This document shows, piece by piece, positions 1,606 to 49,585 of a stretch of DNA of 64,000 nt (its first letter is position 1; the number at the start of each line of letters is the position of its first letter). This DNA is from a virus (lineage: Duplodnaviria; Heunggongvirae; Uroviricota; Caudoviricetes): the IMG/VR virus record IMGVR_UViG_3300033067_001661, positions 128,001 to 192,000 of that record, one strand, 5' to 3'. The position numbers and the translations under genes are program-made. The notes under the pieces were generated by a model. It saw only the letters and a program-made list of their open reading frames with translations. It was not told where the DNA came from and did not search any database.

Positions 1606-2802
1606 TCACGATCTATCATGCTGTAGGTTGATATTGTAGGTCCAAGTTATACCTCTCTTAGGATGGATTCCAAAGAGCTTTTGCTCTGGCTTGTTGCCTG
1701 GCATATTATTGCTCAAAGAATAAACATCAGAACCGACAAAAGAGCCGTTCATAAGAGCTTTACCGCCATGCGTAGTAAACTCAGAACAGTTGTGAAAATG
1801 TCCACAAAGAGTATAATCGGGATTAACTCCAATCATAGCTCCCATCTTCCTCTCAACTTCCAACAGAGAAGTAACAGGAGGATTTTTGGCCTTTACGTCG
1901 TCTCCATGCATCATTAAAAACTTATGGTTTTGAATAGACTTCAACATCCACCAGCTTTTCGTTGTATGGAACTTTATTCTAGGTTCATCCTTGAACTCTT
2001 TCTGTATAAGCTCATAACATAGCAAATCAAAGTTGTTATACTTTTTCTCTGCACCATTTGGGGCTATTCGTCCATGATTTCCGTATATAGCATAGAACTC
2101 AACTTCCTCAAATAGAGTTAGCATGTAATAGAGGAAATCAGATATAGCCTTTTCGCCAATCATAATCTGGTCAAATATTGGAGAGTCAATCCAAACATGA
2201 GACCAAGCGCCTGCCGTATTTGCTCCTTCAACAATATCTCCTAGAGAGAAAATATGAAGCTTCTTAATAGGATACAGATTTGAATGAAGTTCATGAATAT
2301 CGGTAATGGCAAGCTTTAGATTTTCAAGTCTTTGCAAGAAAATGTCTATGTTATATTCAGATAAACCGCCAGTCTCCTCAATCGTATGTTCGTGACCTAT
2401 ATGAAGATCGCTTAGAATAAGACCAATATCTTCTGGCGTCCTATCAGTCTTTGGCGTTTTCGTATAAACAGGAGGAGGCGCAGGAGGGAGCTTTCTCATA
2501 GCATTATACAACTTGTCTGCTATGATATCAGCCTGAAGCCTATATTTCTCAAGATTCTTCTTGACGCTAATATCTCTATTCACCAAGCCCTGCTCTATCT
2601 CGGCATTCCTCTTCTCTTCAAGTTCAGGCTCATAAAAGTCATAACTTGTCCAGTCGGTATCCTTGTTGTACTTTGTTTCAAGAGCCTTTGGCGTGCGATT
2701 TAGCATCGCAGATAAAACCTTGTATGGAGTACCTTTCATTCTTTCCGTATAAAGAATTTTCAGGTCTTCTTCAGTCCATTTTCTAGCTTCAAAGTTTGAC
2801 AT
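1606..2802 (-). CDS. calcineurin-like metallophosphoesterase with N-terminal Myb/HTH-like domain
   Basis: All five MPP motifs: SDLHIG, LGDIVEG, GNHGR, MHGD, GHFH. N-terminal WTEEDLKIL...LSAMLNRTPKALETKY resembles a Myb/HTH. Confidence 0.85.
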   Translation of the reverse strand: MSNFEARKWTEEDLKILYTERMKGTPYKVLSAMLNRTPKALETKYNKDTDWTSYDFYEPELEEKRNAEIEQGLVNRDISVKKNLEKYRLQADIIADKLYNAMRKLPPAPPPVYTKTPKTDRTPEDIGLILSDLHIGHEHTIEETGGLSEYNIDIFLQRLENLKLAITDIHELHSNLYPIKKLHIFSLGDIVEGANTAGAWSHVWIDSPIFDQIMIGEKAISDFLYYMLTLFEEVEFYAIYGNHGRIAPNGAEKKYNNFDLLCYELIQKEFKDEPRIKFHTTKSWWMLKSIQNHKFLMMHGDDVKAKNPPVTSLLEVERKMGAMIGVNPDYTLCGHFHNCSEFTTHGGKALMNGSFVGSDVYSLSNNMPGNKPEQKLFGIHPKRGITWTYNINLQHDRS

Positions 2803-3514
2803 TTTTCATCCTTTTCTTAAGGGCAAATATTACAGCATTATGATCAGCTAGCTGCATTGCTCCGTTTTTCCTAGTCATACCGCTTGGATTTACTCTGTAT
2901 TTGATTAGGTAATCTTGTAAGTTTGCAAATTTCTTACCATACAGAATCGCTCTACACCAAAAATCTAAGTCATGCGCATACCTAATCTTGTTATCAGGAG
3001 AATAACCTCCAACCTCCCTATAGCCTGATAGCCTATACATGGAAGCTGGATTGATAATCGGACATTTTGATTGAGACACAAGCATTCTCACGATTTCTTT
3101 GTGAGAAGCCGGGGGAAAATCCCAATCTCCAATAAAATTTCCCGCCAAATCAATCTTTTTAGCCCTACCTCCAACGCAAAAAATATCGGGATTCTCCTCA
3201 AGATAGTTAAACTGTAACTCAAGACGATTTGACATGCTCACATCGTCAGCGTCATGAATGGCAATATAGTCCGTCACGGCTAAATCTATCGCCTCTTTAG
3301 ACCTAGCTAAAACCCCTCTATTTTCCTGGTAATCAACAAAGCGTATTCTTGGATCAGTAAAAGACTTGATTACTTCTGATGTTCCGTCTGTTGAACCGTC
3401 ATTGATAATGATGAACTCAAAATCCGAAAACGATTGCCCCAAAATAGACAAGATAGACTCTTTTACAAGTCTTTCGCAGTTGTAAGCTGGAGTTATAACG
3501 CTTATCCTAGCCAT
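2789..3514 (-). CDS. glycosyltransferase family 2 (GT-A fold)
   Basis: ISVITPAYN, IIINDGSTDGT, IAIHDADD (DxD), HDLDFW. Confidence 0.92.
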   Translation of the reverse strand: MARISVITPAYNCERLVKESILSILGQSFSDFEFIIINDGSTDGTSEVIKSFTDPRIRFVDYQENRGVLARSKEAIDLAVTDYIAIHDADDVSMSNRLELQFNYLEENPDIFCVGGRAKKIDLAGNFIGDWDFPPASHKEIVRMLVSQSKCPIINPASMYRLSGYREVGGYSPDNKIRYAHDLDFWCRAILYGKKFANLQDYLIKYRVNPSGMTRKNGAMQLADHNAVIFALKKRMKNVKL

Positions 3515-4629
3515 GCCTTCTTTGAGTTGAAAAAGTCGCTATACCTTTCTTTTATCTCGTCCCAATTATAATCGGCAAGAACTTCTTGATATCCGTCTTC
3601 TCCTAGGGAATCTACAAGAGACTTGTCAGAAAGAAGCTCATCTATATGTTTCTCAAAAGCCAAAGAAACAGCAGCGTCAAACTTCTTCATCTCTCTCGGT
3701 CCCGTTACTGAATCAACACAGAAACCGCCCTTCAAATCAGCAACATGACCAACGTTCAAAGCAATCCACGGCTTCTTAGCAGCCATTGCCTCTAAAAGAA
3801 CTATCGGCCCGCATTCTTGCTGAGACGGAAAAACAAAAGCATCGCTTGCAAAATAAGACTGAACAACATGAGACCTTGGAATGTCATTCAAAAACTTCAC
3901 AGGAAGGCCTCGGCATTGATTTGTAATCATCTCCCTCAATCTATTGCCGGGCTGGAAAGCAAGGGTTGAAGATATAAAGACGAATGTAAAGTCCTTACGT
4001 TTTCTACTCAACCTGGCTATGATTGGCGTCAAAAACTCTTGACCCTTCCCAGGGAAGAAGTTAGAAACACAGAGCAGCATCTTTTCTGTGTTTATGCCGT
4101 AATGCAATTTGAAATCAAAATCAGACTTAACAAACTCGCTCATGTCAACCGAATTGTGAATTATTCTAACAGGGATACCCCAGTCTTTACAAGTCTTAAC
4201 GTCAATATAAGACTCGGCATGAGCTAGAACCTTGAATTGTTGATGGTTTCGCCTAAAAAGCTCAGCAATGGCCTTATTTTGAGGTATTTCGGACCTCATT
4301 CTATTCATGCCAACAAGAGCAATGCTTTTATCAGAATTGATTTTCTCAAGATTCTTCAGCATGGCTGGCCACATAAAGAACCAGTCGCTGTAAACCATAA
4401 TATGATCAGCACCTTCAGAAACAAGAAGTTCTATGAACTGTTGCTCATTCAAAAAGCCAACAGGAACAACTTTTACTCCGTTATGATATACAGAATGAGT
4501 GCCATGCTGACAGAAAACCGTACATAAGTTACCTTTAGAAACGATATGTTCAGTTATTTGCTGAACTATCCGCTCGGCTCCACCCGTATGAAAAGGTTGG
4601 GCAAAATTTGTGCAAACAATAAGCTTCAT
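3502..4629 (-). CDS. glycosyltransferase family 4 (GT-B fold)
   Basis: GGAE N-terminal motif, IIHNSVD, KGQE, FVFPSQQECGPIVLLEAMA (E-x7-E). Confidence 0.92.
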   Translation of the reverse strand: MKLIVCTNFAQPFHTGGAERIVQQITEHIVSKGNLCTVFCQHGTHSVYHNGVKVVPVGFLNEQQFIELLVSEGADHIMVYSDWFFMWPAMLKNLEKINSDKSIALVGMNRMRSEIPQNKAIAELFRRNHQQFKVLAHAESYIDVKTCKDWGIPVRIIHNSVDMSEFVKSDFDFKLHYGINTEKMLLCVSNFFPGKGQEFLTPIIARLSRKRKDFTFVFISSTLAFQPGNRLREMITNQCRGLPVKFLNDIPRSHVVQSYFASDAFVFPSQQECGPIVLLEAMAAKKPWIALNVGHVADLKGGFCVDSVTGPREMKKFDAAVSLAFEKHIDELLSDKSLVDSLGEDGYQEVLADYNWDEIKERYSDFFNSKKAWLG

Positions 4630-4630
4630 A

Positions 4631-5341
4631 TTATCTCATTGGCAAAAACGTCTTACCAGACCATTTCTTCTTAAACTTATCGTAACTCTGCGTGAAAAAC
4701 TTCATCCTATCCTTATCTTTACCTAGGGTCTGATGCGGTAAGTGATCTATCTTCGCTAGGCTATTCCAGCCTATTTTGAAACCAGCCTCTCTTGCCCTAA
4801 AGTTGAAATCAGGATCTTCAAAATAAGCGGGATTGAACTGCTCATCAAAAAGTCCTAGCTTATCAACAACCTCTTTCTTTACCATCATTCCGCCGCAACC
4901 GACATAGGTATATGGATCGCCTTTCTTCTTGCAGTTATGTCTTGGCATGAAACTCGAATCCATAAGCCAAGCATCCGCTCCAACTAAATCGTAATTACCG
5001 CTCTCCATAAACTCATGATATTGCTCAAGCCATCCCGCTCGAACAAACTGATCATTATCAAGAAAACACAAAAGTTCTGTTGGGTCAGATTGATAAAGAG
5101 CATAACCCATGTTACGCCCGCCAATAACCCCAAGATTTCTGTCGTTGATAACGAGAGTATGGTTCTTAAACATTGAAAGAGCATCTGTCAAATACTCTTT
5201 CGTTCCGTCTATAGAACCATTGTCAATCATAATAAGATTGAAAACTGAAGGTTCTGTATATTTGAAAAGTAGTTCTATGAATTTCTCCGTTACAGCTTTG
5301 CCATTATAGGAGAGAACTACTATAGTTGTTTGCTTCGTCAT
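4631..5341 (-). CDS. glycosyltransferase family 2 (GT_2_like_c / rhamnosyltransferase-like group)
   Basis: IVVLSYN, IDNGSIDGT, NLGVIGGRNMG, FLDND (DxD), GLFDEQF..YFEDPDFNFRAREAG. Confidence 0.9.
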   Translation of the reverse strand: MTKQTTIVVLSYNGKAVTEKFIELLFKYTEPSVFNLIMIDNGSIDGTKEYLTDALSMFKNHTLVINDRNLGVIGGRNMGYALYQSDPTELLCFLDNDQFVRAGWLEQYHEFMESGNYDLVGADAWLMDSSFMPRHNCKKKGDPYTYVGCGGMMVKKEVVDKLGLFDEQFNPAYFEDPDFNFRAREAGFKIGWNSLAKIDHLPHQTLGKDKDRMKFFTQSYDKFKKKWSGKTFLPMR

Positions 5342-5342
5342 T

Positions 5343-5552
5343 TTACATTCGGTTTACTTTGTCAAGCTTCAAAAGATCAGCATCAGAAATCTCACCTGTC
5401 TGGCAAAACTTCTTTATTTTGTCCAAAGAAACACCAGACAGTTGCGATATCATTTCGCAATCATTACCCATAAATGACAATTCTTCTCTCATTGCCTCTT
5501 TAGATTGCAATAACTTGGATTTCTTCTTCACGGCTTTCTTCTTCATTGCCAT
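5343..5552 (-). CDS. small basic protein, possible XRE-type helix-turn-helix
   Basis: EMISQLSGVSLDKIKKF pattern; Lys-rich N-terminus; fills the gap between coupled genes. Confidence 0.55.
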   Translation of the reverse strand: MAMKKKAVKKKSKLLQSKEAMREELSFMGNDCEMISQLSGVSLDKIKKFCQTGEISDADLLKLDKVNRM

Positions 5553-5558
5553 ATTTCC

Positions 5559-8500
5559 TTACACTATTTCAACGGTATTCGATTGGGTTGCCGTACCTAC
5601 GCTAATACCGTCAAACGGAATTACTTCGGCTTTCCATCTCTGTCCAGAAGCGGTATTCACAGCCGGAACAATTCGGACATTCTGTAGAGATGGAACCTCT
5701 TCAAAGGTTGAAGAGCCGCTCAAGGCCCTAAACCATCTAATCGAACTCTGGTCGTTCTGAGTGCTTCCTTGCTGCTGAGATTCAGCGTCAACATAGGTAT
5801 ATGTCAACTGCAAAGCAGACGCAGAAGAGGCCGTTGGGCTAGGCGATACAGTTACATTCCTAACCGTAGGAGGATCATTTTCTACGGAAACGGCAGCGCT
5901 TGTTACTGGATTTCCAATGATATTCTGAGAAGCAGGAAGTATTGTAACCTCTAGAACATTACCAATGGCAATACCAACAATGTTATTCTTGACTTCACCA
6001 GGTATGATTTCATTATTGGATATTCCACCAACAGTAACCCCAAGATCTCCTCTCTTGAACTCAATTCCATTGACATACCAAATTATCTGAGAGCTAGTAT
6101 TACCGTCGCCGTCTTGGAAGTAAGCAAAATCAGCAAACGCTCTTGTTGTTGTTGTTACTGTATCCTGTAGCGTTCCGTCATTCTTCTTACCCTTGATTGT
6201 TATAGCCGTTATAAATGGAGGAGCCTCTATTGCGGTAACGGAAGGAGAACGAACAATGTCGCTAAACAAGATTCCATCACTGGCCTTAATTGTTGCGTAA
6301 ACAACATCGTCAACCTTCAATATGCTTTCTCCCTTTTCTCTTGCATATTGCTCATAGCTTGTTCCTGCGGGAACATTTTCAGGTCTAAATGACAAAGCGT
6401 AAACCCATATTGGGTCATTAATGTCATTGATGTTATTCCAGATTCTTAGATTACGCAAGTATTCTATTTCAACTCCATTGATATACCAGCGTATAACAGT
6501 TTGATCTGTATCCTCGCTTCTCTGATTGATGTCAAAATACTTGTAAGACAAACTAATCGTCTGATAAATCGTCAATGTACTTGGAACAACTCTAAAGTCA
6601 GTAATAGTCGGCGGTCTCTGCGACAATGGAGGCGGCAAGAAAACATTAGTGTTGTACATATACGCAACACCATCTATTTCAACAGGATTGTAAGAATCCA
6701 TATTGAGGATTCTAACTCCAAGTCTTAGATTTCCTGCGTTCTCTATCGAAACAGAGAATGGTCCAAGCTGCTTAGAAGAAAATACAACAAGTCCCTCTTT
6801 AGGATAAAGTTCATATCCATCAGAGGCAACAGTCTCTCCGTCCTTATCAAGAATGGTTACTCTTGAAGTAACGTCCCACTTGCCATATCTAGCCTTCCAC
6901 ATAAAACCATTAACATTGTCAAGAGGTTCATTAAGAGTTGCGTCCTGCTCTTGATTGTAACGAATAGGTATGAATATCTTTCCATACCTATCCGAAGCAG
7001 GCTGAGCGCCACTATAGTAGTCAGACCAGTTATAAGACAAACTTGTTGTTGCGCCAACCTGTATGGTACTAAGATCTGGTTTATTTGCAGACACCGCAAC
7101 AGCTATTTGCTGAGGGCTAAAATCGGTTGTCTCTGGCTTCAAGTATATAAAGCTTTCAGTTGGTACACTATACTTAATGTTGATGGCAGTTAGAGCAGGA
7201 ACGCCAGGCGTTGGGATAAGATCATACTCGTTCTCTATATAAGAACTCAATCCGCTCAAAAGCGTGACCTTGAACTTGATATATCTAGCATTGACATTTA
7301 CAAGCGATATTTCTGTATTAGGATTGAATGAATCGCTGTAATCTGAATAGTTGAAACCATCTTCACTTGTCGCCATCCTCCAATTACCATCTGTATTTGG
7401 GTATAACTCATAGTCAAGAGATACGGTATTGATAATACTGTTCTTGCTCAAATCAATAACACACTCATACAACCCCCAACCAATTGAGCCTTCTACTCGA
7501 CCCAATGAGTTGTTCAATATCTCGTCAATATAAGCTGCGTCTAGAATGGTCTGGCTTTGTCCGCCAGTCTGATTAGCAATAGTGTCTAGAGAATCTGTAT
7601 CTGTTCGACTTACCAAGGCTGACAAAGTAACTGGGAAAACAACAGAGAAGTTATTGATAACAACAGGAACCTTACCAAAACCGTCGATTGCCTGAACGTC
7701 TTGTATTGCGGTATCAAGCGTATTAATTGAAAGATTCTCTTCATTATCAGTATTGACATAAATAACCTTGGCATATGGATCAAGGTCTTCGTCAAGCATG
7801 ATTACTGCATTTTTAACAAGAGCATCATAGAGAGGCGAAGCTCCAAAAGGAATTTCATTTCTAAGCCTTGTTAAGCCCTTAGCCATGTCCTCAAACTCTC
7901 CATTCTCGACATGAACAATGATTTGAGGTATCCATTCAATATCACTAAAATACTGTACCTCAGGACTTTCTAGCTGAGGAGTCTGCGGCGGATTGAGATC
8001 GAAAACTGGATTATCGCTTTCCTTTAGAGATTGGTCAATGGTTTGATTGTTTTCAGAATCTCTTCCTGGGTCATAGTTGTTTTGGTTGGAGCTTTGCTCG
8101 ACAGCTTGACTTCCTTCAACGCTTCGGCATCCTTCGAATTCTGTAATGTCTCCGCTGGAAGATCCTGAGGAGCCTCCCGAACCACCAGTGTTTGAGCCTG
8201 GCGTGTCTGAGCCTGCCGAACCATCTGTTGTATTATTCGTTGTTGTGGAGTCTTCATTGTCTTTGATATCTATTACTGTTTGACCATAATAAAACTCATC
8301 AAGAACCGTTATACGAACCTTAATGGTATAAGGATTCCTAACCTCGCCTTCTTTGATAAGGAGAGTATTGTTACCTTCGTTTCCGCCTTCACCAGCAACA
8401 GAATCTTGTATACCAAGCTTCTCTTTAATTTCAGATATCTTCTTCAAAATGTCATCGGCTCTTGGAAGCATAATGGTAGATGCTACACCGTCGTAGATAT

Positions 8501-34437: not shown

Positions 34438-34442
34438 CTAGT

Positions 34443-35510: not shown

Positions 35511-35511
35511 A

Positions 35512-38486: not shown

Positions 38487-38523
38487 TTATACTACTCCTC
38501 CAGGTGCTGGTGCGGGAGCCTGA

Positions 38524-40170: not shown

Positions 40171-40181
40171 AAATTAAATCC

Positions 40182-41279
40182 TTACGCAGAAACTTCCCAT
40201 TGTATTCTTAGAGATGCATTCCTTTTACCTAAAACTGAAGAATCAAATCTAGTAGTAAACTGAACTGAATTTCCATTATTAGGTTCTAAAACAAAAGGAA
40301 GAGAAGGCAAACCTACGAGGATAGCGCTTCCGTCAACAAGTATATTTGTTACTCGAATACCATAAGAAATGCCGCCATTTTCAAGCGTAATTGTCTTATT
40401 GATTACACTTTTATGATTGAAAGATCCAAGGTTAACTGCATCCCCATCAAATACTTCATTTGAAGACTGTTGTACCTCTAAGCTAAATGGCTTAGCAATC
40501 TCATATATAACAGTAAATACAAATGGATTTTCGTCAGGATCATTTGATGTAACAACAACAACAAATGATTTTTGACCCAAAGAAGCTGTATCCAAAGAAA
40601 CAGTAAGTGTTACATTAGAATTGAAAGATAAATTAACCGCTGAAGATTCTGAAGGATCTGTAATAACAGTTTCATCTCCCTGTATAGAGGTTACGCTAAT
40701 GCCTCCCTGAGGAATAGTAAGTGTAGGAATTGCGTAGTTATATATCTGAAAATTCACAAGACCAACACTTTCTTGAGCAAACTTACCAACATCAATAGAC
40801 GATTGTTGCTGGATGCTACCTGCACTATAAAGAATGGCTATGTCAGGATATGAAACAGAAGGAGCGGTAACTGAAAACAAAAACGTATACTTAAATTCAG
40901 AGTTTGTTGCATCATTAGAAACAACAAACAAGGTTACACCCTTATTGCCAACAACAGATGTATCTATGTATATTTTTACAAAGATACCTTCTTGCGGCAA
41001 TATATCATAGGGCAATTCAATAGCTTCATCTTCATTTACGCTGTAAACTGGTCCGTCTTTTTTGAAGCCAAATATCTTCTCAGAAGTTCCAGACCCGTCA
41101 GTTTTTATACCATCTGAAGGTATAAAAACAGGAGCGGACGAGTCTTTATTAACAATAAAAACGTAAAAAGAGAACGTTGTATTCTGAACAAACGAACCTA
41201 AAGAAAGACTTCCTTCGTCAAAGAGTTCTTCGCCCTCACTTGAAGGACCGAAAATGTATTTTAGTTCGCCACTTGCCAT
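40182..41279 (-). CDS. choice-of-anchor D / ASH-type Ig repeat protein (365 aa, three repeats)
   Basis: VVSNDATNSEFKYTF, VTSNDPDENPFVFTV, ITLENGG; AAGGAG SD. Confidence 0.8.
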   Translation of the reverse strand: MASGELKYIFGPSSEGEELFDEGSLSLGSFVQNTTFSFYVFIVNKDSSAPVFIPSDGIKTDGSGTSEKIFGFKKDGPVYSVNEDEAIELPYDILPQEGIFVKIYIDTSVVGNKGVTLFVVSNDATNSEFKYTFLFSVTAPSVSYPDIAILYSAGSIQQQSSIDVGKFAQESVGLVNFQIYNYAIPTLTIPQGGISVTSIQGDETVITDPSESSAVNLSFNSNVTLTVSLDTASLGQKSFVVVVTSNDPDENPFVFTVIYEIAKPFSLEVQQSSNEVFDGDAVNLGSFNHKSVINKTITLENGGISYGIRVTNILVDGSAILVGLPSLPFVLEPNNGNSVQFTTRFDSSVLGKRNASLRIQWEVSA

Positions 41280-41319
41280 TCAAGACTCCTTAATTCAATA
41301 TCGTCTTAGCCCTATATTA

Positions 41320-41460
41320 TCAACCACCCTGAAGTCCACCTGAGCCTCCTGAGCCTCCACCATTACCGCCTGAGCCATTGCCGCCCGAACCGCCGCCATC
41401 CGGACTGCCACTTCCTTCATAACCAATGTTGTTATTTATAGGGCCAGGTCCGCCTCCAAA
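41320..41460 (-). repeat. Gly/Ser/Asn-rich coding tail of the 2392-aa protein
   Basis: GGGSGGNGSGGNGGGSGGSGG. Confidence 0.7.
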
Positions 41461-44400
41461 CCAATCCGAAGATTCGCCTATACCAAACTTTCTTGTCTTA
41501 TAGTAATCAGGATTACCAAAAGAACCCTTTACATCGCTAGCTGTATACTTTTCTCTGAAAACAGTAAAGTTATTGAAAATTGATACGCTTTGATCAAGAG
41601 TTCCACTTGTTGTCAAAGATATAGATCTTGTTATTGAATCAGAAGAACCACACTGACCAGGTATGTCAAGCGTTATAATGCCAATGCCGTCAATGTTTAT
41701 GATACCATCATCCGCAAAGACACTAAACGTTCCTCTATATACTCCATCTCTTATTTTCTCAACAACAATACCAGTTTGATCATTAATACCTTGCTGATAA
41801 ACATTCATAAGAATACTTGACGAAAGCCCAAGTCTTTCAACAGACTTCAATCTTTCTAACAAAGCAATCTTTTGCTTATCTCTAAACTCAATTCTAGCAT
41901 ATATTGTAGAAACTTCAGTTATATCATCAGATATAGAAGAAAGGTTGCTATTATCTATAACGCTTTCGGTCTTTGATTTACTTACAACAGGATAGCTCTT
42001 GAATTTAGGAACTGGCTGAGAAAAATCTTCGTCAAAGAACAAATCTATTTTGTATTCAAAAGAGTCATACAAAGCCATGAAGTCAACACAAAACGATTCA
42101 GTCTTACCAAAGAAGGTCAAAACCTCACAACAGATTCTCTTAACACCATTACCTGAAGAAGCAACCCAAGGAGCTACAAATCTATTCCTTTCAACGAAGT
42201 ACGCTCTAAAGAAATCTCTTTCAGCAGGGGTTGCAGCCGTATCTTTTTGAGTTTGCTCTGGAAGATCAGGTCCAATAGGAATCCATTCAGACCAATCTTC
42301 GTCGGTTTCATTTCTAAGTCTATAAGCATAAGTTCCAGGAACGCCTATTATGTCAAGTTCAACAAAGCAATCCGTTATAACTGGTATTGGAGTATTAACA
42401 TCAAGGTATGTTGAATACGCAACGCTTCCTGGAGATATTCTAACCTTCTGATATTGATCAACCGTTCTATCTGGCGCTCCGCCAACAACAAAGAAAGATG
42501 GATCAGTTTCGTCCGTAAACATACAAGGCAAAATCAAATCCTTATTCTTTGCGGTAAATTTACAACCCAAACTGCATGACTGATTGTAAACCTTCTTCCC
42601 GTCATGAAGAGTTAGATTGATATTCTGAAATGGATCAATGAAAACAGAAGCATCATACAAATACTTTTCAGTTTCAGAGAAATATGTCAATCTTCTATCA
42701 TAACCACCTTGACCAGAACACTGGAAATTATCATTTTCAGCATCATAAAGAGCCATGAAATAATCAGGAGAAGATGGAGACTGACTATCTAATAGTCTCG
42801 CATATCTAAAATCTTGCCATATAACGTAGAAAATATCATTCTCTGTTACAGATATCTTCGGGAAAAGGCAGTTACCATCTGCAAGAGAAATCCTAAAGTC
42901 TTCAAAACCTTGACCGCTTGAAAGCCAATTCTGAGAGTCATAATCAGTCTTCCAAAAATCAGAAGCAGTCTTTTCGCAAGGACATAGAAGCTCGTATTCT
43001 GATTCAACAAAGAAGCTTCCATTCCTGTAGCTTTCAATAACAACTCTATAAGGAATACCACAAAGCAATGGCTGTCTAACAACACTCGAAGGAGTTAATG
43101 TTGTCTTTGTTTGCGATTCATAAAACTCAAATGGCAATATTTCTGGCGAATAAATAACGCTTATAGACTGACCAGGTTCTACACTAACACCGCTTGAAGG
43201 AAATGAGGAAGACGAAGAGAACCAATTAAGAGTATCAGTCTTTGTAAATGATGACATAACAAGATTCGTCTTTTCAGGATCAGCGTAAAAGCTTACTCTA
43301 AAATGAATATCTTCAGCAACGTCTGAGTTGTTTGAGAATGAACAACTTACGTCGCATCGAGAAGACTGCTTCGATGGACAATAATAAACAAACTGATTTT
43401 CTCCAACAACCGAAGTATTATCAAGCAAAATAACCCTTATCTGGTCTATAACAGGATTTGTATACAAGAATAAATCAAGAGTCTTCCTATCTGCGGATAC
43501 GGTGATGGTATCATTATTTTCAACACCTGCACCACCGCCACCAGGATAAGTAACACCAGGATGACCAAATACCGAGTTTGTAGATCCAAGCTTAGAGCCT
43601 GAAATAAACAACGCTAATATTGGAGAATTAAACTTAACTTTTGCAGTTACGCTTCCCTCTGAACCTTCAGGGTCAAAATGCAACAAAACGCTTCTTATTT
43701 TTTGACCAACCTCAACGCCTGGCAACTCAGTTAAAGAACCGGCAAAAGAAACACCACTATACCCACTTGTATTGAGAGAAGCCAAGCTCTGAGCAGCCAC
43801 CTCAACAGGAGATTCATCCTCAAACTCAAGAAGCGCTCTAACCTCGTTTGATTTTTCAAGTCTACCAGTTTTCAAATTAAGACCGGAATATGGTCGCAAA
43901 ATAGCAATATTCTGTGACGCAACAACATCAATGATGTTTGAGTTGATTTCGTATTCAACAACAGCGTATAAAACTCTTCCAGTTATATTGTCTTCATTAG
44001 ATGGAGTGTAAGAAACAAGATATTGTGTTTCATCAATAGCTGATAAGCCATTGTAAGATATTTGCTTATTATCAACTCTCCATCCATTTATAGATTCTTT
44101 AGAAGATATTCTCTTATACAAAATAGAGTAATCCTTATCTTCGTAAAAGCTAATATTGAAATGGAATAAACTTGTTTCTGTAGCAAGGAATGTAAACTCA
44201 ACAGCACAATTGAGTTGACTAATTGGCAAAACATCAGCATCGTAATAAGGATCTATAGACGAATTCCATTTGTACAAGAACTCATCTACCTCGTCTTGTT
44301 TACAACGATCAACAAGCATTTGATCGGGAACCTTAGACATAGCCGCATAGATTTGATATTTACCGCTTCTAGCGTCTTGCCATGCGATAAGTCTTCTACC

Positions 44401-47400
44401 AACTCCGTCTACGCAAACTGATGGATTAACGCTATTGCTTTTTGAATCAGATATCTTTGTGTCAAATCTAAACGGATTGTTTCTAAGTCTTGAACCACCA
44501 TAATAAACATTCCAATAATCATCTCTATTTGACTGCCAAGCAATATGAATCTTATCAATCTTATCTATGAAAATGTCGGCGCTCTTGTTTTGATAATCAT
44601 TAGAAAGCGTTATTGGTATTTGAGTAAAGTTATTTGTTACATTAAGACTGTAATTTAGATCAAACTCAGGCTGATCAACAAGAAGGCTTTCTGCTGTTGT
44701 AAACGAATCAAGTTCATCATTTAGATCTTCTTCCGCTATAACCATTACAGCGTCTATCTGAGGACCATACTGGACATCCCTTCCGTCATTAAACTGATTA
44801 GACGCATTTTCAAGCTTTATAGTTGTAGTTGTTGAAGTTGCAACAAAACTCATGGAAACTGTTTTCCAATTCATCACAGAAGGGCCTGTTGCGTTTATTG
44901 TAGTAGAAAAAGTCTTTGATGTTGTTCCTAGAGTTGCTTTGACTTTTTTGGTAACAGAACTTCCTTGAACATAACTTTCTGGCTGATTTGCTAGGTCGAA
45001 GAAAACCCAATACTTCTTTCCAACGGTCGTTGCAAAAGAATTTGTTATAAATCCTCTTTGAACTGTCGGAGAAGATAGACCAGTAAGTTCCATCCAACTT
45101 GTTCTATCAGAAGCGCTAAAACCAATCTCTGTATTTGGAATAACCGTTGGCGTTCTTCTATACAAAGCGCCATAGCTAACCGTCCATCCAGTTACAGATT
45201 CGTAACCATTATATAGAGGCAACGAATCCTGATAAGGCATAACCGTTTCTTCAAACGAACCATTTGAAAGTATGTTCTTAACAACATCTGGAACAACCAT
45301 CTGCGCTACATCTCTTTCAAACTCGCTAAAATCAATGTATGAAGGATCAAGAACTAGAGTATGCGGACTTATAGATAGGTTTGCAAAAATCTGCTTTACA
45401 TTTCCGCTCTCATACATATTGCCCTTATAAGGTGTTGACTCATTAATTGAAAAGCCTGATCCAGGAGGAATACCCAAGGCAATATCAAACTTTCTAATCT
45501 GATCAGAAAAATCAGCCAAGAAACTAGAAGCACAAATAATTTTGTTGTTTAGAGAAACAACAATATCCCCGTAATATCTATATTCATTAGCAAAAGCTTC
45601 TCTATCTCTCTTCATAACACCATTTATGTGATCGCTTCCGGCTTTCGCATAATGGACAGAGATCTTAACTTTTTCAGCAGTTGAGAAATCAACATATCCA
45701 TCGAGTAATCTCTTGATAAGATATGTCTTTTTAGCAACTTGGCCTGTTGATTCGTTTTCGCATGTAGCCAACAATAAAGCAAGCTTGTATCTACCTGTAT
45801 TTAGTTCGTATTCTATTTCGTTTGTAAAGCCTTCGCAATCAGATAGCTCAAGTTCGTTTCTTTCGCAAAACTGAGCAAATGTTTCCGTATTCTTAGCCTT
45901 GAATCTAATCTTCTCTGGAATAATAGCAAGCATCCAATGCTTTACATTTGCAGGATTAGCAAGAGACATTCTCTCGTCATACGATGTATAAACAAGAGAC
46001 TGTCTATGAGGAACATCATCAACAACTGCTCCTCCGCTATTTATTTCTATGCTTGAACCGTCAAGCTTGAAAGCACCGCATACTGGTATGAAGTTTTCAT
46101 AAAAAGCCTCATAAGAATCTATAGTGTAAAGGTTCTTGTTCTTAGAATACTTGTAATTACCTGCTGGAGTAAATCCGCTCTTCCATTCTGCAAACTTTGC
46201 TGCTATTTCTTTATCCGTAAGAACGCCAGTTGATAAGTATGGCATCCAAAGGTCAAAAGAAACCTGATAGCTAAGCTGCGCAAAATTCGCAGGGAAATCA
46301 TTTCCAAACTCGTCTTTGGAAAGAGAGTAATAAGCCATAGCAGTATCTTTAGAGCAATCTCCTTCTATAGCAACATAACTTCTGTCGTAAACGGAAACTT
46401 TACCATCATTTGCTATCATTCTAGAAAATGGACTCTGAAGTTTAACTGTTGGCTCTGTAATGGAATACAAATCAACATCTGCTCCAGAAAGAACATTCTT
46501 ATCAAGTATGGACATTAAAATCTGATTATTTACTGGTTTAGCGGACGGTCCAAGAACAGAGTAATACAACTGAGTTGGACCAATCCTGTCTGATTCCCAA
46601 ACAATATGCAGATTTCCAACGCTATCGCATTTTATCTTAGCATTCTTGTTCTCACCAAGTTGAGTTAACTGTTTCCATTGATTATTCTCAACAGACTGAC
46701 CAACTCTAAATGAGTAATAGAATAACTGATAGATTCCATCAACAGGAGCCTGACAAACAACGTAAGCTATTTCCTCTCCTGTATCTTCAATCTTTCTGGA
46801 AGCTATAACAGGATAAGCGCAACTAACCTCTCTATTGAATATGTCATAAACATAAGGCAAGGGATTGACTTCAATTAAGTCATTTTCTGGAAGTTCTTTT
46901 GTTGAATCAACAATAACAAACTTCTGACAATATATACTTTCATAAATGTTTGGACCAATATCATTATTGAATCCATCAGGAACTTCTATTCTTATAAGAT
47001 TGTTTACCATGTCCCTACTAGATATTTCATGGGATTGATAACCAACCTTAGGCGTCAAGAAAACAACAGTATTACCTGAATCCTTTATAGCAGAAGAGTC
47101 AACCAATAGCTCAAGAGTCTTATTGCTCTTTAACTGAACCTCAAGAGTTCCGCTACCAGTATAAACATCCGATCTGATAGTGAATCTTGTATCAGACTTG
47201 ATTTCTATAAAATCACCCTGGTCAACAGCCTTAATCGAATAAAGCCTACATCTTAGGTCATTATTGATTAGTTCAACAAACGAAGTTATAAGCTCAGAAA
47301 GAGTTCCCAAAATAGTAGTGTACTGTATTTCAAAAACAGCACCATCATCAACTCTAAACGTAATACCATACTTCTGATCAACAGCGACTCCGCTCGGAAT

Positions 47401-48498
47401 TGCTGTGTGATAGAACTTTGGTGGCTTAAGAATAGAACCATCCCTAACAGGATTACCATTGTACTTCAAAGAACTTGGCAAATTAGCAATAAAAACTCTA
47501 CTAGAAAGAGTTGGAAAAGCATTCTCGTCGCTCTCAAAAGTTTCTTGAGAACTAAAAACAACAAGACCAGATCCATTAGACAATGATGTTGAAGAAGTTG
47601 AATTGTAAATCCTACATACAGAATCATTATCTACAGGATAAACCTCTTTCAAATCGGAACAAAATCCTATCTTTGAATTGTAAAACGCTGATTCGTCGTC
47701 AAATATGGATATTGAACCAACAACGGCTCCGTCAACGCAAAAGTCATCAAGTTTTTCAAGCTTCAAACCCTGACCAGGTATGGGGTCAAGAATTGCGCAT
47801 TCAGGAGCCTCTGGGTCATTAGTTGCTTGAAGAGCTTTCATCTCTTCGGGAACAAAGTGAATAAAAGAACCAGAGTCATACGTTTCAGCATGCTTATCAG
47901 CAGACTTTGAATACCTAATTGGGAACTTTTGCAACGTTCCCGAAGAAGCAGAAGATCCAGTTAGAACGTCTATCGCTCTAAACGAAATCGAACCCTCTCC
48001 GCTATAGTTCGATTTAACGATAAACTTCTTGTCATTTACGATAACATGAAGACTTGAGTTTGGCTGAGTATGAACCTTGATTGTTGCTTTCTCTTGCAAA
48101 CCAATAAAAGGCGGATACACAGAAATTCTGTCTCCAGTGCTTTTTACTTTTGAACTTTGAACCTGAAAAGCGAACGCTGCAATGTCAGACAGCCTCCAAG
48201 TACCCGACTCTGATTTTTCTTCTACGTTTGCATAAACAGAGATAACACTTGCAGCATCGGCCTCAGAAAGAGCAAGGTCCATTCTTCCTGTAACTTCTGA
48301 TACAGAACCAACAATAATCTTGTCACCAACAACGCTTCCACTAGACAATGTATTAGGCTTCAATACTCTACCAAACGTGGCGTTTTCAAATCCTATTCGA
48401 TAGGTCTTTGACGGAACGAGACCGGAAACAACAAAAGCAATAGCTTTTGTTTCTGCTATTGGAGCGCTGAAAGGTTGTAACTTAAGTTTAGCGGACAC
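41320..48498 (-). CDS. giant multidomain virion protein (2392 aa): discontinuous BNR-type propeller, DUF642/choice-of-anchor-C CBM, FY-x-D repeats, Gly-rich tail
   Basis: HIVWES/HIAWQS/IAWQD/VIWQD blades; NGSFEE...GWTV...YGPQIDAV; GTG start overlapping the GT gene. Confidence 0.85.
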   Translation of the reverse strand: MSAKLKLQPFSAPIAETKAIAFVVSGLVPSKTYRIGFENATFGRVLKPNTLSSGSVVGDKIIVGSVSEVTGRMDLALSEADAASVISVYANVEEKSESGTWRLSDIAAFAFQVQSSKVKSTGDRISVYPPFIGLQEKATIKVHTQPNSSLHVIVNDKKFIVKSNYSGEGSISFRAIDVLTGSSASSGTLQKFPIRYSKSADKHAETYDSGSFIHFVPEEMKALQATNDPEAPECAILDPIPGQGLKLEKLDDFCVDGAVVGSISIFDDESAFYNSKIGFCSDLKEVYPVDNDSVCRIYNSTSSTSLSNGSGLVVFSSQETFESDENAFPTLSSRVFIANLPSSLKYNGNPVRDGSILKPPKFYHTAIPSGVAVDQKYGITFRVDDGAVFEIQYTTILGTLSELITSFVELINNDLRCRLYSIKAVDQGDFIEIKSDTRFTIRSDVYTGSGTLEVQLKSNKTLELLVDSSAIKDSGNTVVFLTPKVGYQSHEISSRDMVNNLIRIEVPDGFNNDIGPNIYESIYCQKFVIVDSTKELPENDLIEVNPLPYVYDIFNREVSCAYPVIASRKIEDTGEEIAYVVCQAPVDGIYQLFYYSFRVGQSVENNQWKQLTQLGENKNAKIKCDSVGNLHIVWESDRIGPTQLYYSVLGPSAKPVNNQILMSILDKNVLSGADVDLYSITEPTVKLQSPFSRMIANDGKVSVYDRSYVAIEGDCSKDTAMAYYSLSKDEFGNDFPANFAQLSYQVSFDLWMPYLSTGVLTDKEIAAKFAEWKSGFTPAGNYKYSKNKNLYTIDSYEAFYENFIPVCGAFKLDGSSIEINSGGAVVDDVPHRQSLVYTSYDERMSLANPANVKHWMLAIIPEKIRFKAKNTETFAQFCERNELELSDCEGFTNEIEYELNTGRYKLALLLATCENESTGQVAKKTYLIKRLLDGYVDFSTAEKVKISVHYAKAGSDHINGVMKRDREAFANEYRYYGDIVVSLNNKIICASSFLADFSDQIRKFDIALGIPPGSGFSINESTPYKGNMYESGNVKQIFANLSISPHTLVLDPSYIDFSEFERDVAQMVVPDVVKNILSNGSFEETVMPYQDSLPLYNGYESVTGWTVSYGALYRRTPTVIPNTEIGFSASDRTSWMELTGLSSPTVQRGFITNSFATTVGKKYWVFFDLANQPESYVQGSSVTKKVKATLGTTSKTFSTTINATGPSVMNWKTVSMSFVATSTTTTIKLENASNQFNDGRDVQYGPQIDAVMVIAEEDLNDELDSFTTAESLLVDQPEFDLNYSLNVTNNFTQIPITLSNDYQNKSADIFIDKIDKIHIAWQSNRDDYWNVYYGGSRLRNNPFRFDTKISDSKSNSVNPSVCVDGVGRRLIAWQDARSGKYQIYAAMSKVPDQMLVDRCKQDEVDEFLYKWNSSIDPYYDADVLPISQLNCAVEFTFLATETSLFHFNISFYEDKDYSILYKRISSKESINGWRVDNKQISYNGLSAIDETQYLVSYTPSNEDNITGRVLYAVVEYEINSNIIDVVASQNIAILRPYSGLNLKTGRLEKSNEVRALLEFEDESPVEVAAQSLASLNTSGYSGVSFAGSLTELPGVEVGQKIRSVLLHFDPEGSEGSVTAKVKFNSPILALFISGSKLGSTNSVFGHPGVTYPGGGGAGVENNDTITVSADRKTLDLFLYTNPVIDQIRVILLDNTSVVGENQFVYYCPSKQSSRCDVSCSFSNNSDVAEDIHFRVSFYADPEKTNLVMSSFTKTDTLNWFSSSSSFPSSGVSVEPGQSISVIYSPEILPFEFYESQTKTTLTPSSVVRQPLLCGIPYRVVIESYRNGSFFVESEYELLCPCEKTASDFWKTDYDSQNWLSSGQGFEDFRISLADGNCLFPKISVTENDIFYVIWQDFRYARLLDSQSPSSPDYFMALYDAENDNFQCSGQGGYDRRLTYFSETEKYLYDASVFIDPFQNINLTLHDGKKVYNQSCSLGCKFTAKNKDLILPCMFTDETDPSFFVVGGAPDRTVDQYQKVRISPGSVAYSTYLDVNTPIPVITDCFVELDIIGVPGTYAYRLRNETDEDWSEWIPIGPDLPEQTQKDTAATPAERDFFRAYFVERNRFVAPWVASSGNGVKRICCEVLTFFGKTESFCVDFMALYDSFEYKIDLFFDEDFSQPVPKFKSYPVVSKSKTESVIDNSNLSSISDDITEVSTIYARIEFRDKQKIALLERLKSVERLGLSSSILMNVYQQGINDQTGIVVEKIRDGVYRGTFSVFADDGIINIDGIGIITLDIPGQCGSSDSITRSISLTTSGTLDQSVSIFNNFTVFREKYTASDVKGSFGNPDYYKTRKFGIGESSDWFGGGPGPINNNIGYEGSGSPDGGGSGGNGSGGNGGGSGGSGGLQGG

Positions 48499-49585
48499 GG
48501 TAAATATTCTCCATTATCTTTCCAAAAGCATCGGCAGCAACCCTATATGTAAAGTTGTTATGAACATAGTCATATGCCCTATCTGCTTTTCCCATAGTCT
48601 CGTCTTGATTTGAATAAACCCTTCTCATAGCGTCTTGAACTGATTGAATCGTTATTCGGGGCCACTTCTTATTGAAAAACTGAACGATGTTATCCATATT
48701 AGAATGAAGCATGAAACCCGAAGGTTCGATAAGGGTGCATCTGTCCTCTGAAGCATAGTCCTGACATCCTGAAAAATTTGTTATAATGATTGGCACTTTG
48801 ATAGCCATACATTGCAATCCAGGAAGGCCAAATCCTTCGCCTAAAGTTGGCATAACTAAACAGTTGGCTGACTTATAGAAGGACGGTAAATAAGAGTCGT
48901 CGAATATTCTTCTTTCAAACAAAATGGGAGCGAATTCCTTCTTTAAGCCAAGAGTTGTCTTAATTTTTGCAACTTCTTGCGTTGCAAGCTGAGTCTTGTC
49001 TGTTTTTATGAGAAGCTGAACATTGTCAGAAGACGAAAACTCTCTACAAAAAGCCTCGATAAGCTCCTGCCATCCTTTTCTCTTTTTCCATGTCCCAACA
49101 AACAAGAAAGTGTACTTATCATGTTTGTCAAGAGGTATTACATCTTTATGCCAGTTTTCACTATTGAAAGTATGAGGTAGGTAAAACATAGGCTTGTAAA
49201 TACCGGCATGAGCAAATATCTTGTAATTAAACTGCGACGGACAAGCAATGGCGTCAAGTCTATTAAGAAGTTCAACCCACTTTTCTGGAGGCTCAAACGT
49301 CTCAAAAGTTGCAAAACCAATAGACTTATAAGTTCTTGGTATCCTCATTTGCATAGGAGGAATACAGTGATAAACTTGCGTTGCTCTAGGATTTGGCAAC
49401 TTTCTAAACAAGGGATCAAGTATAGACAATGACTTTTTACTGAACGATTGCTTTGAAAGGCTACCATTCAGAGGAACAACCCTAATATCATACTGCTTAG
49501 TTTCAAGGAGAGCAGAAACAACGTCAAACGCTGCTTGCCCATATCCTGTTTCGTTGAAAAAACCTATCCACTCAATTGGAATCAT
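48488..49585 (-). CDS. glycosyltransferase family 4 (GT-B fold)
   Basis: TGYG, FETFE, RKGW, PTLGEGFGLPGLQCMA. Start moved to 49585 because GGAGG lies 7 nt upstream. Confidence 0.9.
   Translation of the reverse strand: MIPIEWIGFFNETGYGQAAFDVVSALLETKQYDIRVVPLNGSLSKQSFSKKSLSILDPLFRKLPNPRATQVYHCIPPMQMRIPRTYKSIGFATFETFEPPEKWVELLNRLDAIACPSQFNYKIFAHAGIYKPMFYLPHTFNSENWHKDVIPLDKHDKYTFLFVGTWKKRKGWQELIEAFCREFSSSDNVQLLIKTDKTQLATQEVAKIKTTLGLKKEFAPILFERRIFDDSYLPSFYKSANCLVMPTLGEGFGLPGLQCMAIKVPIIITNFSGCQDYASEDRCTLIEPSGFMLHSNMDNIVQFFNKKWPRITIQSVQDAMRRVYSNQDETMGKADRAYDYVHNNFTYRVAADAFGKIMENIYRVR

What the first reader, a model, noticed from the sequence alone, without database searches (positions are those of the whole stretch)
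1606..49585. Candidate virion glycosylation system: four glycosyltransferases embedded in a giant-phage tail/appendage operon
Seen: a GT4 (48488-49585) overlaps the start of the 2392-aa structural gene. A GT2-GT4-GT2 trio (2789-5341) follows the 3264-aa protein (with only a 69-aa gene between) and is coupled to a metallophosphoesterase. The GTs therefore bracket about 43 kb of giant beta-rich proteins, several with Ser/Thr/Gly-rich linkers or tails. Established: some actinobacteriophages encode GTs that glycosylate their own virion proteins. Inference: this phage may build an oligosaccharide on its appendage proteins while also carrying lectins and glycan hydrolases, i.e. a combined glycan write/read/cut module. 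I know of no characterised phage with this arrangement.
Basis: partly seen in the sequence, partly recalled or inferred. Interest (0 to 1): 0.8.

Follow-up and report, generated by a model that had tools for sequence, protein, structure and literature searches.

The report
Glycosyltransferases fixed inside megaphage virion genes
An uncultured wastewater phage of about 500 kb keeps sugar-adding enzymes wired into its tail genes, in the same places across a whole clade, so its particle is probably sugar-coated; this is untested, and the enzyme families alone cannot say what receives the sugar.

Summary
Four real glycosyltransferase (GT) genes lie at the stated places in the tail operon of a 333-kb fragment of a huge phage.

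- GT4-a (48488-49591) lies between the 1180-aa gene and a 2392-aa-family gene in 21 of 23 related loci, down to 35% identity of the 1180-aa protein.
- The GT2-GT4-GT2 trio stays at the end of the giant-gene run in all 15 relatives examined.

All four GTs are soluble and keep their catalytic motifs.

Outside the window:
- A paralogue of GT4-a follows the capsid gene, and another GT-B protein precedes the tail-tube gene.
- A separate island carries GDP-sugar enzymes and more GTs.

No membrane steps of envelope-glycan synthesis were found, and several relatives lack a ThyA-type hydroxymethylase.

Corrections:
- The "metallophosphoesterase" is an SbcD-like DNA exonuclease, and it is not conserved at that spot.
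- No glycan hydrolase could be confirmed.
- No Ser/Thr acceptor tag is conserved.

Virion glycosylation is the best reading (about 0.45) but is unproven. This scan has flagged similar candidate virion-glycosylation modules in other phages.

The parts
48488..49591 (-). GT4-a: soluble GT-B (GT4-type) glycosyltransferase. It is a core gene of the baseplate/appendage module.
   Evidence: Pfam. AF2 model pLDDT 93.9 with a GT-B fold. Best PDB match is the chlorovirus NY-2A GT 3oy2, E 6e-16. E252 and Q260 (an EX7Q motif) are invariant in 34 orthologues. Present at this position in 21 of 23 related loci.
49572..50198 (-). HNH homing endonuclease, an optional insertion between the 1180-aa gene and GT4-a.
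   Evidence: phrog_1271 E 2e-15. Absent in the 99%-identical L009 and in L012-L014. Other HNH genes occupy the same junction in L039, L042 and L045.
50288..53830 (-). 1180-aa conserved tail/baseplate protein, the upstream partner of GT4-a.
   Evidence: No Pfam or PHROG hit. It is the most conserved tail protein, 35-81% identical in relatives. In relatives without the HNH, its stop overlaps the GT4-a start by 4 nt.
41320..48498 (-). 2392-aa appendage protein with a DUF642 carbohydrate-binding-like domain. It is the downstream partner of GT4-a and a candidate acceptor.
   Evidence: DUF642 E 6.6e-11. A member of this family follows GT4-a in 20 of 21 loci and is absent in both loci that lack GT4-a. 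Its start overlaps the GT4-a stop by 8-11 nt.
5559..15353 (-). 3264-aa appendage protein (LamG, Kelch propeller). It is the last giant gene before the trio.
   Evidence: A homologue precedes the trio in 12 of the 13 relatives examined.
5343..5552 (-). 69-aa optional ORF, not part of the GT system.
   Evidence: Deleted in the 97-99% identical relative L015, which keeps only the last 11 nt. Present in L017.
4631..5341 (-). GT2-1: soluble GT-A (GT2) glycosyltransferase.
   Evidence: Pfam E 1.2e-16. The DxD motif (D95, D97) and the ED motif (E175, D176) are invariant in 9 relatives. No transmembrane segment.
3502..4629 (-). GT4-b: soluble GT4 glycosyltransferase.
   Evidence: Pfam E 1.7e-15. EX7E motif (E272, E280) invariant in 8 relatives.
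2789..3514 (-). GT2-2: soluble GT-A (GT2) glycosyltransferase.
   Evidence: Pfam E 1.5e-28. D88, D90 and D91 are invariant. The nearest named families are EpsE and TuaG, far below their cut-offs.
1606..2802 (-). SbcD/Mre11-like DNA exonuclease, the first gene of the replication/recombination module. It is not a sugar enzyme.
   Evidence: phrog_284 E 1.2e-46. Missing at this position in G003, G004 and G005.
517..1572 (-). 351-aa conserved protein of unknown function. It follows the trio in all relatives.
   Evidence: No hit in Pfam, PHROG or NCBIfam. Atlas scores stay below 0.9. Conserved at 28-97% identity.
21487..26157 (-). 1556-aa fibre protein with fn3 repeats and a Ser/Thr/Gly-rich C-terminal tail (residues 1491-1552). 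It is a possible acceptor.
61508..64000 (-). C-terminal 829-830 aa of a 1243-aa tape-measure-like protein whose start lies beyond the window's end. It marks the region as a tail module.
   Evidence: PHROG tape-measure and tail-lysin hits. A tail-tube gene (PF18906, E 6.7e-13) lies just upstream, outside the window.

Best explanation
The window is the tail and appendage part of one long minus-strand virion operon of an uncultured megaphage. Its complete relatives are 460-550 kb. Its capsid protein is 49% identical to that of Bacillus phage G.

Proposed mechanism:
- The four GTs are soluble cytoplasmic Leloir enzymes made together with the structural proteins.
- They most likely add sugars directly to virion proteins before or during assembly.
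- GT4-a probably acts on or with the appendage protein encoded by the gene that overlaps its stop codon (the 2392-aa family).
- The GT2-GT4-GT2 trio either extends that glycan or decorates the last giant protein (the 3264-aa family).
- Phage-made GDP-6-deoxy-sugars from a separate island may be among the donors.

Shown: enzyme identity, intact motifs, solubility, fixed position, translational coupling, co-occurrence with the 2392-aa family, and the absence of membrane-step genes.

Inferred: late co-expression, protein as the acceptor, which protein it is, and which sugar is used.
For: Position:
- GT4-a lies between the 1180-aa and 2392-aa-family genes in 21 of 23 loci. Both loci that lack it also lack the 2392-aa family (Fisher p 0.012, loci not phylogenetically independent).
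- GT4-a identity tracks 1180-aa identity (Spearman 0.77). GT4-a is as conserved (37-72%) as the best-conserved tail proteins.
- Overlapping stop and start codons occur on both sides of GT4-a.
- The trio keeps its place 38-45 kb downstream of GT4-a: 5 close relatives, G001-G005 and G009-G010.

More GTs in the virion operon:
- A GT4-a paralogue (hhalign probability 99.9%) sits just downstream of the major head protein gene.
- A further GT-B protein sits just upstream of the tail-tube gene.
- Both are conserved in G001 and G002.

Enzyme properties:
- Catalytic motifs are invariant.
- There are no transmembrane or signal segments.

What the phages lack:
- No phage-encoded priming transferase, flippase, or Wzy/ligase in six genomes, four of them complete.
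- No ThyA-type hydroxymethylase in G000, G001 or G003, although all three keep GT4-a and the trio.

Other:
- GMD and a GMER-like gene are present.
- The best structural match of GT4-a is a chlorovirus GT.
Against: - There is no direct evidence of any glycan on any virion protein.
- GT2 and GT4 are generic families. GT4-like enzymes also glycosylate DNA (PMC13326640), lipids and small molecules.
- No conserved acceptor motif was found. The capsid and tube C-termini differ between relatives, and the Gly/Ser tails are variable.
- The virion operon also holds non-structural genes, such as HNH genes and an actin-like gene noted earlier, so position alone is weak evidence.
- The trio lies exactly at the border with the replication module.
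- In GT4-a the second Glu of the EX7E motif is Gln.
- The GT-B gene beside the tube gene lacks the first Glu of EX7E.
- The literature on huge phages assigns such GTs to host-envelope glycans (PMC7824862; 10.64898/2026.10.24.761521).
Confidence: 0.45

Rival explanations
1. Host-envelope glycan remodelling. The GTs act on host lipid-linked or nascent polysaccharide (LPS, capsule or teichoic-type) intermediates in the cytoplasm. This would change the cell surface, for example to block superinfection or to stop progeny sticking to debris.
For: - The nearest named families of GT2-2 and GT4-b are EPS, teichuronic-acid and LPS enzymes. PHROG labels are 'GtrB-like' and 'moron'.
- The genome has a GDP-sugar island with further GTs.
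- This is the published reading for jumbo-phage GT clusters (PMC7824862).
Against: - All those family scores are far below the cut-offs.
- The GT2s lack the GtrB membrane helices.
- No priming transferase, flippase or polymerase was found in six genomes.
- Fixed, translationally coupled positions inside the tail operon across the clade contrast with the sporadic, polymorphic clusters described for envelope modification.
Confidence: 0.2
2. Late or virion-delivered effector. One or more GTs glycosylate a host or phage non-structural protein or a small molecule, possibly after being packaged and ejected with the DNA. This would act as a counter-defence.
For: - GT4-a and nearly all listed orthologues match Pfam PF20706, 'GT4 in conflict systems'. 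Those domains are predicted effectors acting on macromolecules (PMC8195603).
- From general knowledge, genes for packaged enzymes are often found among structural genes.
Against: - The PF20706 match covers only the C-terminal half and scores below the generic GT4 models.
- No sensor or NTPase partners lie nearby.
- The tight pairing with the 2392-aa family is better explained by an enzyme-substrate or assembly relation.
Confidence: 0.12
3. DNA glycosylation. The GTs decorate hydroxymethylated or hydroxylated pyrimidines in phage DNA to evade restriction.
For: - The trio abuts an exonuclease, a helicase and a DNA methylase.
- Phage DNA arabinosyl-transferases resemble the same GT4 structures (3mbo, 3c4q, 6kih) that GT4-a and GT4-b match (PMC13326640).
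- GT-A and GT-B DNA GTs are widespread (10.1101/2023.12.21.572611).
Against: - Such GTs cluster with a ThyA-type enzyme or with a 5mYOX dioxygenase plus a C5-methylase (same papers).
- No ThyA homologue was found in G000, G001 or G003, and none lies near the GTs.
- No Tet_JBP hit was found, but that search's control was silent.
- GT4-a sits in the baseplate module, not among DNA genes.
Confidence: 0.07
4. Non-catalytic role. GT4-a serves as an assembly chaperone or structural adaptor for the neighbouring appendage protein.
For: - Translational coupling on both sides and strict pairing with the 2392-aa family.
- The EX7E motif is altered to EX7Q.
Against: - The donor-binding and first-Glu residues are invariant over 34 orthologues.
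- The fold is a complete two-domain GT-B at pLDDT 93.9.
- The trio keeps all its catalytic residues.
Confidence: 0.06

Closest known systems
Virion glycosylation of mycobacteriophages (Che8, Corndog, Myrna; Freeman et al. 2023, Cell Host Microbe 31:1216). Known to me only through citing papers (PMC12619734, PMC11256854); the paper itself is not held.
   Same: Phage-encoded soluble GTs are proposed or shown to decorate the phage's own structural proteins in the cytoplasm.
   Different: - There, glycans sit on C-terminal extensions of the capsid and tail-tube subunits. Here no conserved C-terminal tag exists.
- Here the conserved GTs are embedded in the baseplate and fibre genes of a huge phage from wastewater.
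- GT4-a finds no Mycobacterium phage by tblastn, only Streptomyces, Arthrobacter and Rhodococcus phage GTs at 22-29% identity.
- Nothing here has been shown experimentally.
Chlorovirus capsid glycosylation by virus-encoded cytoplasmic GTs and GDP-sugar enzymes (PBCV-1; my own knowledge). The NY-2A B736L structure is PDB 3oy2.
   Same: - 3oy2 is the best solved-structure match for both GT4-a and the tube-side GT-B protein.
- Both viruses encode GMD plus a GMER-like enzyme and many GTs without membrane machinery.
   Different: - That is a virus of a eukaryotic alga.
- The function of B736L itself is not established.
- Sequence identity is only about 15%.
Polysaccharide-modification GT clusters of jumbo phages and cyanophages (Iyer et al. 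2021, PMC7824862).
   Same: NDP-sugar enzymes plus several paralogous GTs. This fits the island at genome 79.6-93 kb.
   Different: Those clusters are described as sporadic and polymorphic and as aimed at host polysaccharide. GT4-a and the trio are single, fixed, translationally coupled genes in the virion operon.
DNA-hypermodifying phage GTs (Pyle et al. preprint, 10.1101/2023.12.21.572611; arabinosyl-5-hydroxycytosine pathway, PMC13326640).
   Same: The same broad folds (GT-A, and GT4-like GT-B).
   Different: The defining neighbours (a ThyA-type enzyme, or 5mYOX plus a C5-methylase, a dCTPase and a kinase) are absent near these GTs. A ThyA-type gene is also absent from several genomes that keep the GTs.
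Bacillus phage G (Donellivirus gee, 497.5 kb), the closest cultured phage by capsid protein.
   Same: Major head protein 49% identical. Similar genome size.
   Different: - Phage G has no homologue of the 1180-aa protein.
- It gave no GT4-a hit.
- No GT is annotated next to its capsid gene.

Membership tests
GT4 / Pfam Glycos_transf_1 (retaining GT-B) | Profile match above the gathering score | tested here: met
   GT4-a 51.5-56.4 bits and GT4-b 56-57 bits, against cut-offs of 26-27.
GT4 / Pfam Glycos_transf_1 (retaining GT-B) | Two-Rossmann-domain GT-B fold | tested here: met
   GT4-a AF2 model pLDDT 93.9. Top PDB matches are all GT4 enzymes. GT4-b was not folded.
GT4 / Pfam Glycos_transf_1 (retaining GT-B) | EX7E motif | tested here: inconclusive
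   GT4-b has E272 and E280 invariant. GT4-a has E252 and Q260 invariant, so its second Glu is Gln.
GT2 / Pfam Glycos_transf_2 (inverting GT-A) | Profile match above the gathering score, plus a DxD motif | tested here: met
   100.3 and 61.6 bits, against a cut-off of 23.3. D88, D90 and D91 in GT2-2, and D95 and D97 in GT2-1, are invariant.
Actinobacteriophage-type virion glycosylation | Glycan demonstrated on virion proteins | not testable with these tools
   Needs glycoproteomics or staining of particles or recombinant proteins.
Actinobacteriophage-type virion glycosylation | Ser/Thr-rich C-terminal acceptor extensions on capsid and tail-tube subunits | tested here: not met
   The capsid protein ends ...LTGSVT here and ...EVSEAS in G002. 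The tube protein ends ...FQPLT here...RPDA in G001 and ...NPDD in G002.
Actinobacteriophage-type virion glycosylation | GTs homologous to the mycobacteriophage enzymes | tested here: inconclusive
   tblastn of GT4-a against 50,697 phage records hit Streptomyces, Arthrobacter and Rhodococcus phage GTs at 22-29% identity, and no Mycobacterium phage. Whether those hit phages are glycosylated is not known to me.
DNA-glycosylating phage GT pathways | ThyA-type hydroxymethylase/hydroxylase, or 5mYOX plus C5-methylase, in the genome and usually adjacent | tested here: not met
   PF00303 is absent from G000, G001 and G003. It is present but distant from the GTs in G002, G004 and G005. PF12851 was absent in five genomes, but its control search was silent, so that part is inconclusive.
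Gtr-type O-antigen conversion (GtrA/B/C) | GtrB-type GT2 with C-terminal membrane helices | tested here: not met
   The GT2s are 236 and 241 aa. The maximum 19-residue hydropathy is 1.1. PHROG 'GtrB-like' matches cover only the N-terminal half. GtrA and GtrC were not searched.
Wzx/Wzy- or ligase-dependent envelope glycan pathway encoded by the phage | Priming phosphoglycosyl transferase, flippase, and polymerase or ligase | tested here: not met
   PF02397, PF00953, PF01943 and PF04932 are absent from six genomes. Controls were positive. Host enzymes could still supply these steps.

The most novel reading that the evidence does not exclude
A whole clade of megaphages of about 500 kb glycosylates its own particle with GTs dedicated to each part. 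GT4-a and the 2392-aa-family appendage protein would form an obligate enzyme-substrate pair. In one sub-lineage, a duplicated copy would serve the head and a further GT-B protein the tail tube. The trio would finish the fibre glycans using phage-made GDP-deoxy-sugars. This would be the first virion glycosylation system built into tail genes, and the first outside actinobacteriophages.
Probability: 0.3. Interest if true: 0.75.

Novelty: new variant of a known kind. Interest (0 to 1): 0.55.

Why it matters
If the particle is glycosylated, phage self-glycosylation would extend from actinobacteriophages to huge environmental phages, and from head and tube subunits to host-recognition appendages. 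A sugar coat on fibres could alter host range, resistance to proteases in sludge, and recognition by lectins or grazers.

It would also mean that GTs in huge phages should not be filed automatically as host-envelope 'auxiliary metabolic genes'.

The conserved order (1180-aa gene, GT4-a, 2392-aa-family gene) gives a concrete enzyme and candidate-substrate pair. It can be tested by co-expression without a cultured host.

Tried and rejected
- C-terminal acceptor tags (Thr or Ser ends), suggested by earlier scan notes: not conserved on capsid or tube. The Gly/Ser tail of the 2392-aa protein is missing in L012 and L013.
- Sigma-70 promoter and intrinsic-terminator scan of 1-6000: counts equal the shuffled expectation, so it says nothing about operon limits.
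- NCBIfam: no GT reaches any named family's cut-off.
- PDB sequence searches of the 1464-, 2759- and 2392-aa proteins for hydrolase domains: no hit. PHROGs on the giant proteins: only unnamed families.
- Genes inserted next to the GTs in relatives are HNH, DUF4238, zinc-finger or unknown genes, not sugar enzymes.
- The 351-aa protein: Atlas scores below 0.9, no lead.
- Metatranscriptome contigs from one wastewater study bridge the 2392|GT4-a and GT4-a|HNH|1180 junctions. DNA carry-over cannot be excluded, and the uncovered part at 54.4-58 kb proves nothing.
- The Tet_JBP search had a silent control.
- No cultured phage carries the 1180-aa protein, so no laboratory model was found.
- The count of 6 of about 10 GT-like genes inside the virion operon (about a third of the record) is not significant by itself.
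Full report
WHAT IS THERE

The window is bases 128001-192000 of a single 333,623-bp IMG/VR virus record, which CheckV rates about 66% complete. Every large gene is on the minus strand.

- GT2-2, 2789-3514, E 1.5e-28.
- GT4-b, 3502-4629, E 1.7e-15.
- GT2-1, 4631-5341, E 1.2e-16.
- GT4-a, 48488-49591, E 5e-15.

GT4-a overlaps the GTG start of the 2392-aa gene by 11 nt. The trio genes are separated by a 1-nt gap or overlap by 13-14 nt.

The tail context is real:
- The 829-830 aa at 61508-64000 are the C-terminal part of a 1243-aa tape-measure-like protein.
- A tail-tube gene (PF18906, E 6.7e-13) lies about 3 kb beyond the window.
- Further upstream lie a major head protein (phrog_2522, E 3.6e-61) and a prohead-protease-like gene.

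The giant proteins carry LamG, Kelch, fn3, Ig and DUF642 domains. No glycoside-hydrolase catalytic domain was detected by Pfam, PHROGs or PDB-sequence search.

The 'metallophosphoesterase' (1606-2802) is an SbcD/Mre11-type exonuclease: phrog_284, E 1.2e-46, with Pfam only 19.7 bits. Downstream of it come a 351-aa unknown protein, an SF2 DNA helicase, a Dam-like methylase, IF3, a DnaC-like loader and DnaB. The trio therefore lies at the border between the virion and replication modules. In the three distant relatives G003, G004 and G005 the exonuclease is not at this position, while the trio, the 351-aa gene and the helicase are.

The 69-aa ORF is an optional gene. It is deleted in a 97-99% identical relative.

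Ser/Thr/Gly-rich stretches exist in three giant proteins. The tail of the 2392-aa protein is missing in two close relatives.

THE SYNTENY TEST

GT4-a. Protein-guided scans of IMG/VR gave 24 loci with a homologue of the 1180-aa protein, at 35-99% identity. One of them is cut off by its contig end.
- In 21 of the 23 informative loci a GT4-a orthologue (37-98% identical) follows the 1180-aa gene.
- In 20 of those 21, the next gene belongs to the 2392-aa family.
- The two loci without GT4-a also lack that family (Fisher p 0.012, with the caveat that the loci are related).
- In relatives without the HNH gene, the GT4-a start overlaps the 1180-aa stop by 4 nt. The downstream giant gene overlaps the GT4-a stop by 8-11 nt.
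- GT4-a is as conserved as the best-conserved tail protein, and their identities co-vary (rho 0.77).

The trio. It follows the 3264-aa homologue in all eight close relatives. It also does so in G001, G002, G004 and G005; in G003 no 3264-aa homologue was recognised next to it. It is 38-45 kb downstream of GT4-a in five close relatives and 35-50 kb downstream in G001-G005, G009 and G010. In G003 and G004 it is interrupted by unrelated inserted genes.

These GTs are therefore vertically inherited core genes of the module, not recent additions.

BEYOND THE WINDOW

Two more GT-B genes lie in the same operon:
- GT4-d (genome 234345-235724) lies about 0.7 kb downstream of the major head protein gene. 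It is a clear paralogue of GT4-a (hhalign probability 99.9%, E 9e-36) with an intact EX7E motif.
- GT4-c (genome 196852-198009) lies about 0.6 kb upstream of the tail-tube gene. It is a confident GT-B fold (pLDDT 89.5; best PDB match 3oy2) but lacks the first Glu of EX7E.

Both keep their positions in G001 and G002. Both are absent from the more distant complete genomes G003 and G004. They are therefore additions in one sub-lineage, whereas GT4-a and the trio are clade-wide.

A separate island at genome 79.6-93 kb encodes:
- GDP-mannose 4,6-dehydratase (440 bits);
- a GMER-like reductase and a second GMD-like enzyme;
- a GT32-like DxD protein;
- at least one GT2 (two GT2 hits);
- a weak GT47-like hit.

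Relatives carry 11-17 GT hits each.

WHAT THE ENZYMES SAY

All catalytic signatures are invariant across relatives:
- GT2-2: D88, D90, D91.
- GT2-1: D95, D97 and E175, D176.
- GT4-b: E272, E280.
- GT4-a: E252, Q260.

None has a transmembrane or signal segment.

GT4-a folds as a complete GT-B enzyme (pLDDT 93.9). Its best solved match is the chlorovirus NY-2A glycosyltransferase 3oy2. After that come generic GT4 enzymes with protein, lipid, sugar and small-molecule acceptors. No NCBIfam equivalog cut-off is reached. The family therefore does not reveal the acceptor.

WEIGHING THE ACCEPTORS

DNA.
- Published DNA-glycosylating GTs, some of them GT4-like, cluster with a ThyA-type enzyme or with a 5mYOX dioxygenase plus a C5-methylase (10.1101/2023.12.21.572611; PMC13326640).
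- No ThyA homologue exists in G000, G001 or G003, which all keep GT4-a and the trio.
- Tet_JBP was not found, but that search had a silent control.

Host envelope.
- Six genomes, four of them complete, have no priming transferase, flippase, or Wzy/ligase.
- The GT2s lack GtrB-type helices.
- Host enzymes could still supply those steps.
- The literature reads huge-phage GTs this way (PMC7824862; 10.64898/2026.10.24.761521). That reading fits the variable sugar island better than the fixed operon GTs.

Virion protein.
- This fits the fixed, translationally coupled positions and the pairing with the 2392-aa family.
- It also fits the paralogue beside the capsid gene and the purely cytoplasmic tool-kit.
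- It has no direct support and no conserved acceptor motif.

I put virion glycosylation at about 0.45, envelope remodelling at 0.2, a late or packaged effector at 0.12, DNA at 0.07 and a non-catalytic role at 0.06.

CONTEXT

- The phage recurs in wastewater and activated-sludge data from at least eight studies.
- Contigs from four metatranscriptome libraries bridge the GT4-a junctions. That is compatible with a polycistronic RNA but does not prove it.
- The closest cultured phage by capsid protein is Bacillus phage G (49% identity). Phage G lacks the 1180-aa protein, gave no GT4-a hit, and has no GT annotated by its capsid gene.
- GT4-a has at least 322 homologues at E <= 1e-10 in the large protein collection. 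The best 120 are all at least 45% identical and many lie on contigs of 200-550 kb.
- Earlier notes of this scan flagged GT-plus-Thr-tag modules in other phages as candidate virion glycosylation. That tag rule does not apply here.

VERDICT

The arrangement is a new variant of a known kind of system, but its function is untested.

Noticed in passing
window 49572-50291; L028/L029, L039, L042, L045: The junction between the 1180-aa gene and GT4-a is a repeated landing site for HNH endonuclease genes. ORFs of four different lengths (208-212, 239, 312 and 326 aa) occupy it in different relatives, and the 312-aa one also has a CapR domain. A 99%-identical strain has none.
   Followed up: partly
genome 79.6-93 kb (L058), outside the window: A sugar island. 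It holds GDP-mannose 4,6-dehydratase, a GMER-like reductase, a second GMD-like gene, a GT32-like DxD protein, a weak GT47-like hit and GT2 genes. The phage can probably make GDP-6-deoxy-sugars.
   Followed up: partly
genome 234345-235724 and 196852-198009 (L060, L055): Two further GT-B genes in the virion operon. One is a GT4-a paralogue after the major head protein gene. The other precedes the tail-tube gene and lacks the first Glu of EX7E. Both are present in G001 and G002 and absent in G003 and G004.
   Followed up: yes
window 5343-5552 versus L015:9277-9288: The 69-aa lysine-rich ORF is deleted in a 97-99% identical relative, which keeps only its last 11 nt. A relative that is 66-76% identical in the neighbouring genes keeps the ORF at 90% amino-acid identity over 51 residues.
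   Followed up: partly
L015:14576-17497, L018:14567-17119 versus genome 126519-128054: The SF2 helicase downstream of the trio is 973 and 850 aa long in two relatives, against 511 aa here. That suggests an intein or other insertion in those copies.
   Followed up: no
L052:2-9003, L053:79-11428: The 3264-aa protein is encoded as two or three consecutive genes in the distant relatives G004 and G005.
   Followed up: no
window 38524-40170: The 548-aa protein ends in a proline run (…PPSPPPPPPPPSTPSQSA).
   Followed up: no
G004:C1:279973-280491, G005:C1:249915-250307: These relatives carry divergent ThyA-like genes (42 and 37 bits, ORFs of about 325 aa). G002 has a canonical thymidylate synthase (418 bits). 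The divergent ones might be pyrimidine hydroxymethylases in those relatives only.
   Followed up: no
genome 236441-237334 (L060): The major head protein is 49% identical to gp27 of Bacillus phage G. This places the uncultured clade near the largest cultured phage, while the tail module has no counterpart there.
   Followed up: partly
L048 (contig start to 13656): One relative has a 540-aa version of the 1180-aa protein followed directly by a homologue of the 1556-aa fibre protein. It has no GT4-a and no 2392-aa-family gene.
   Followed up: partly
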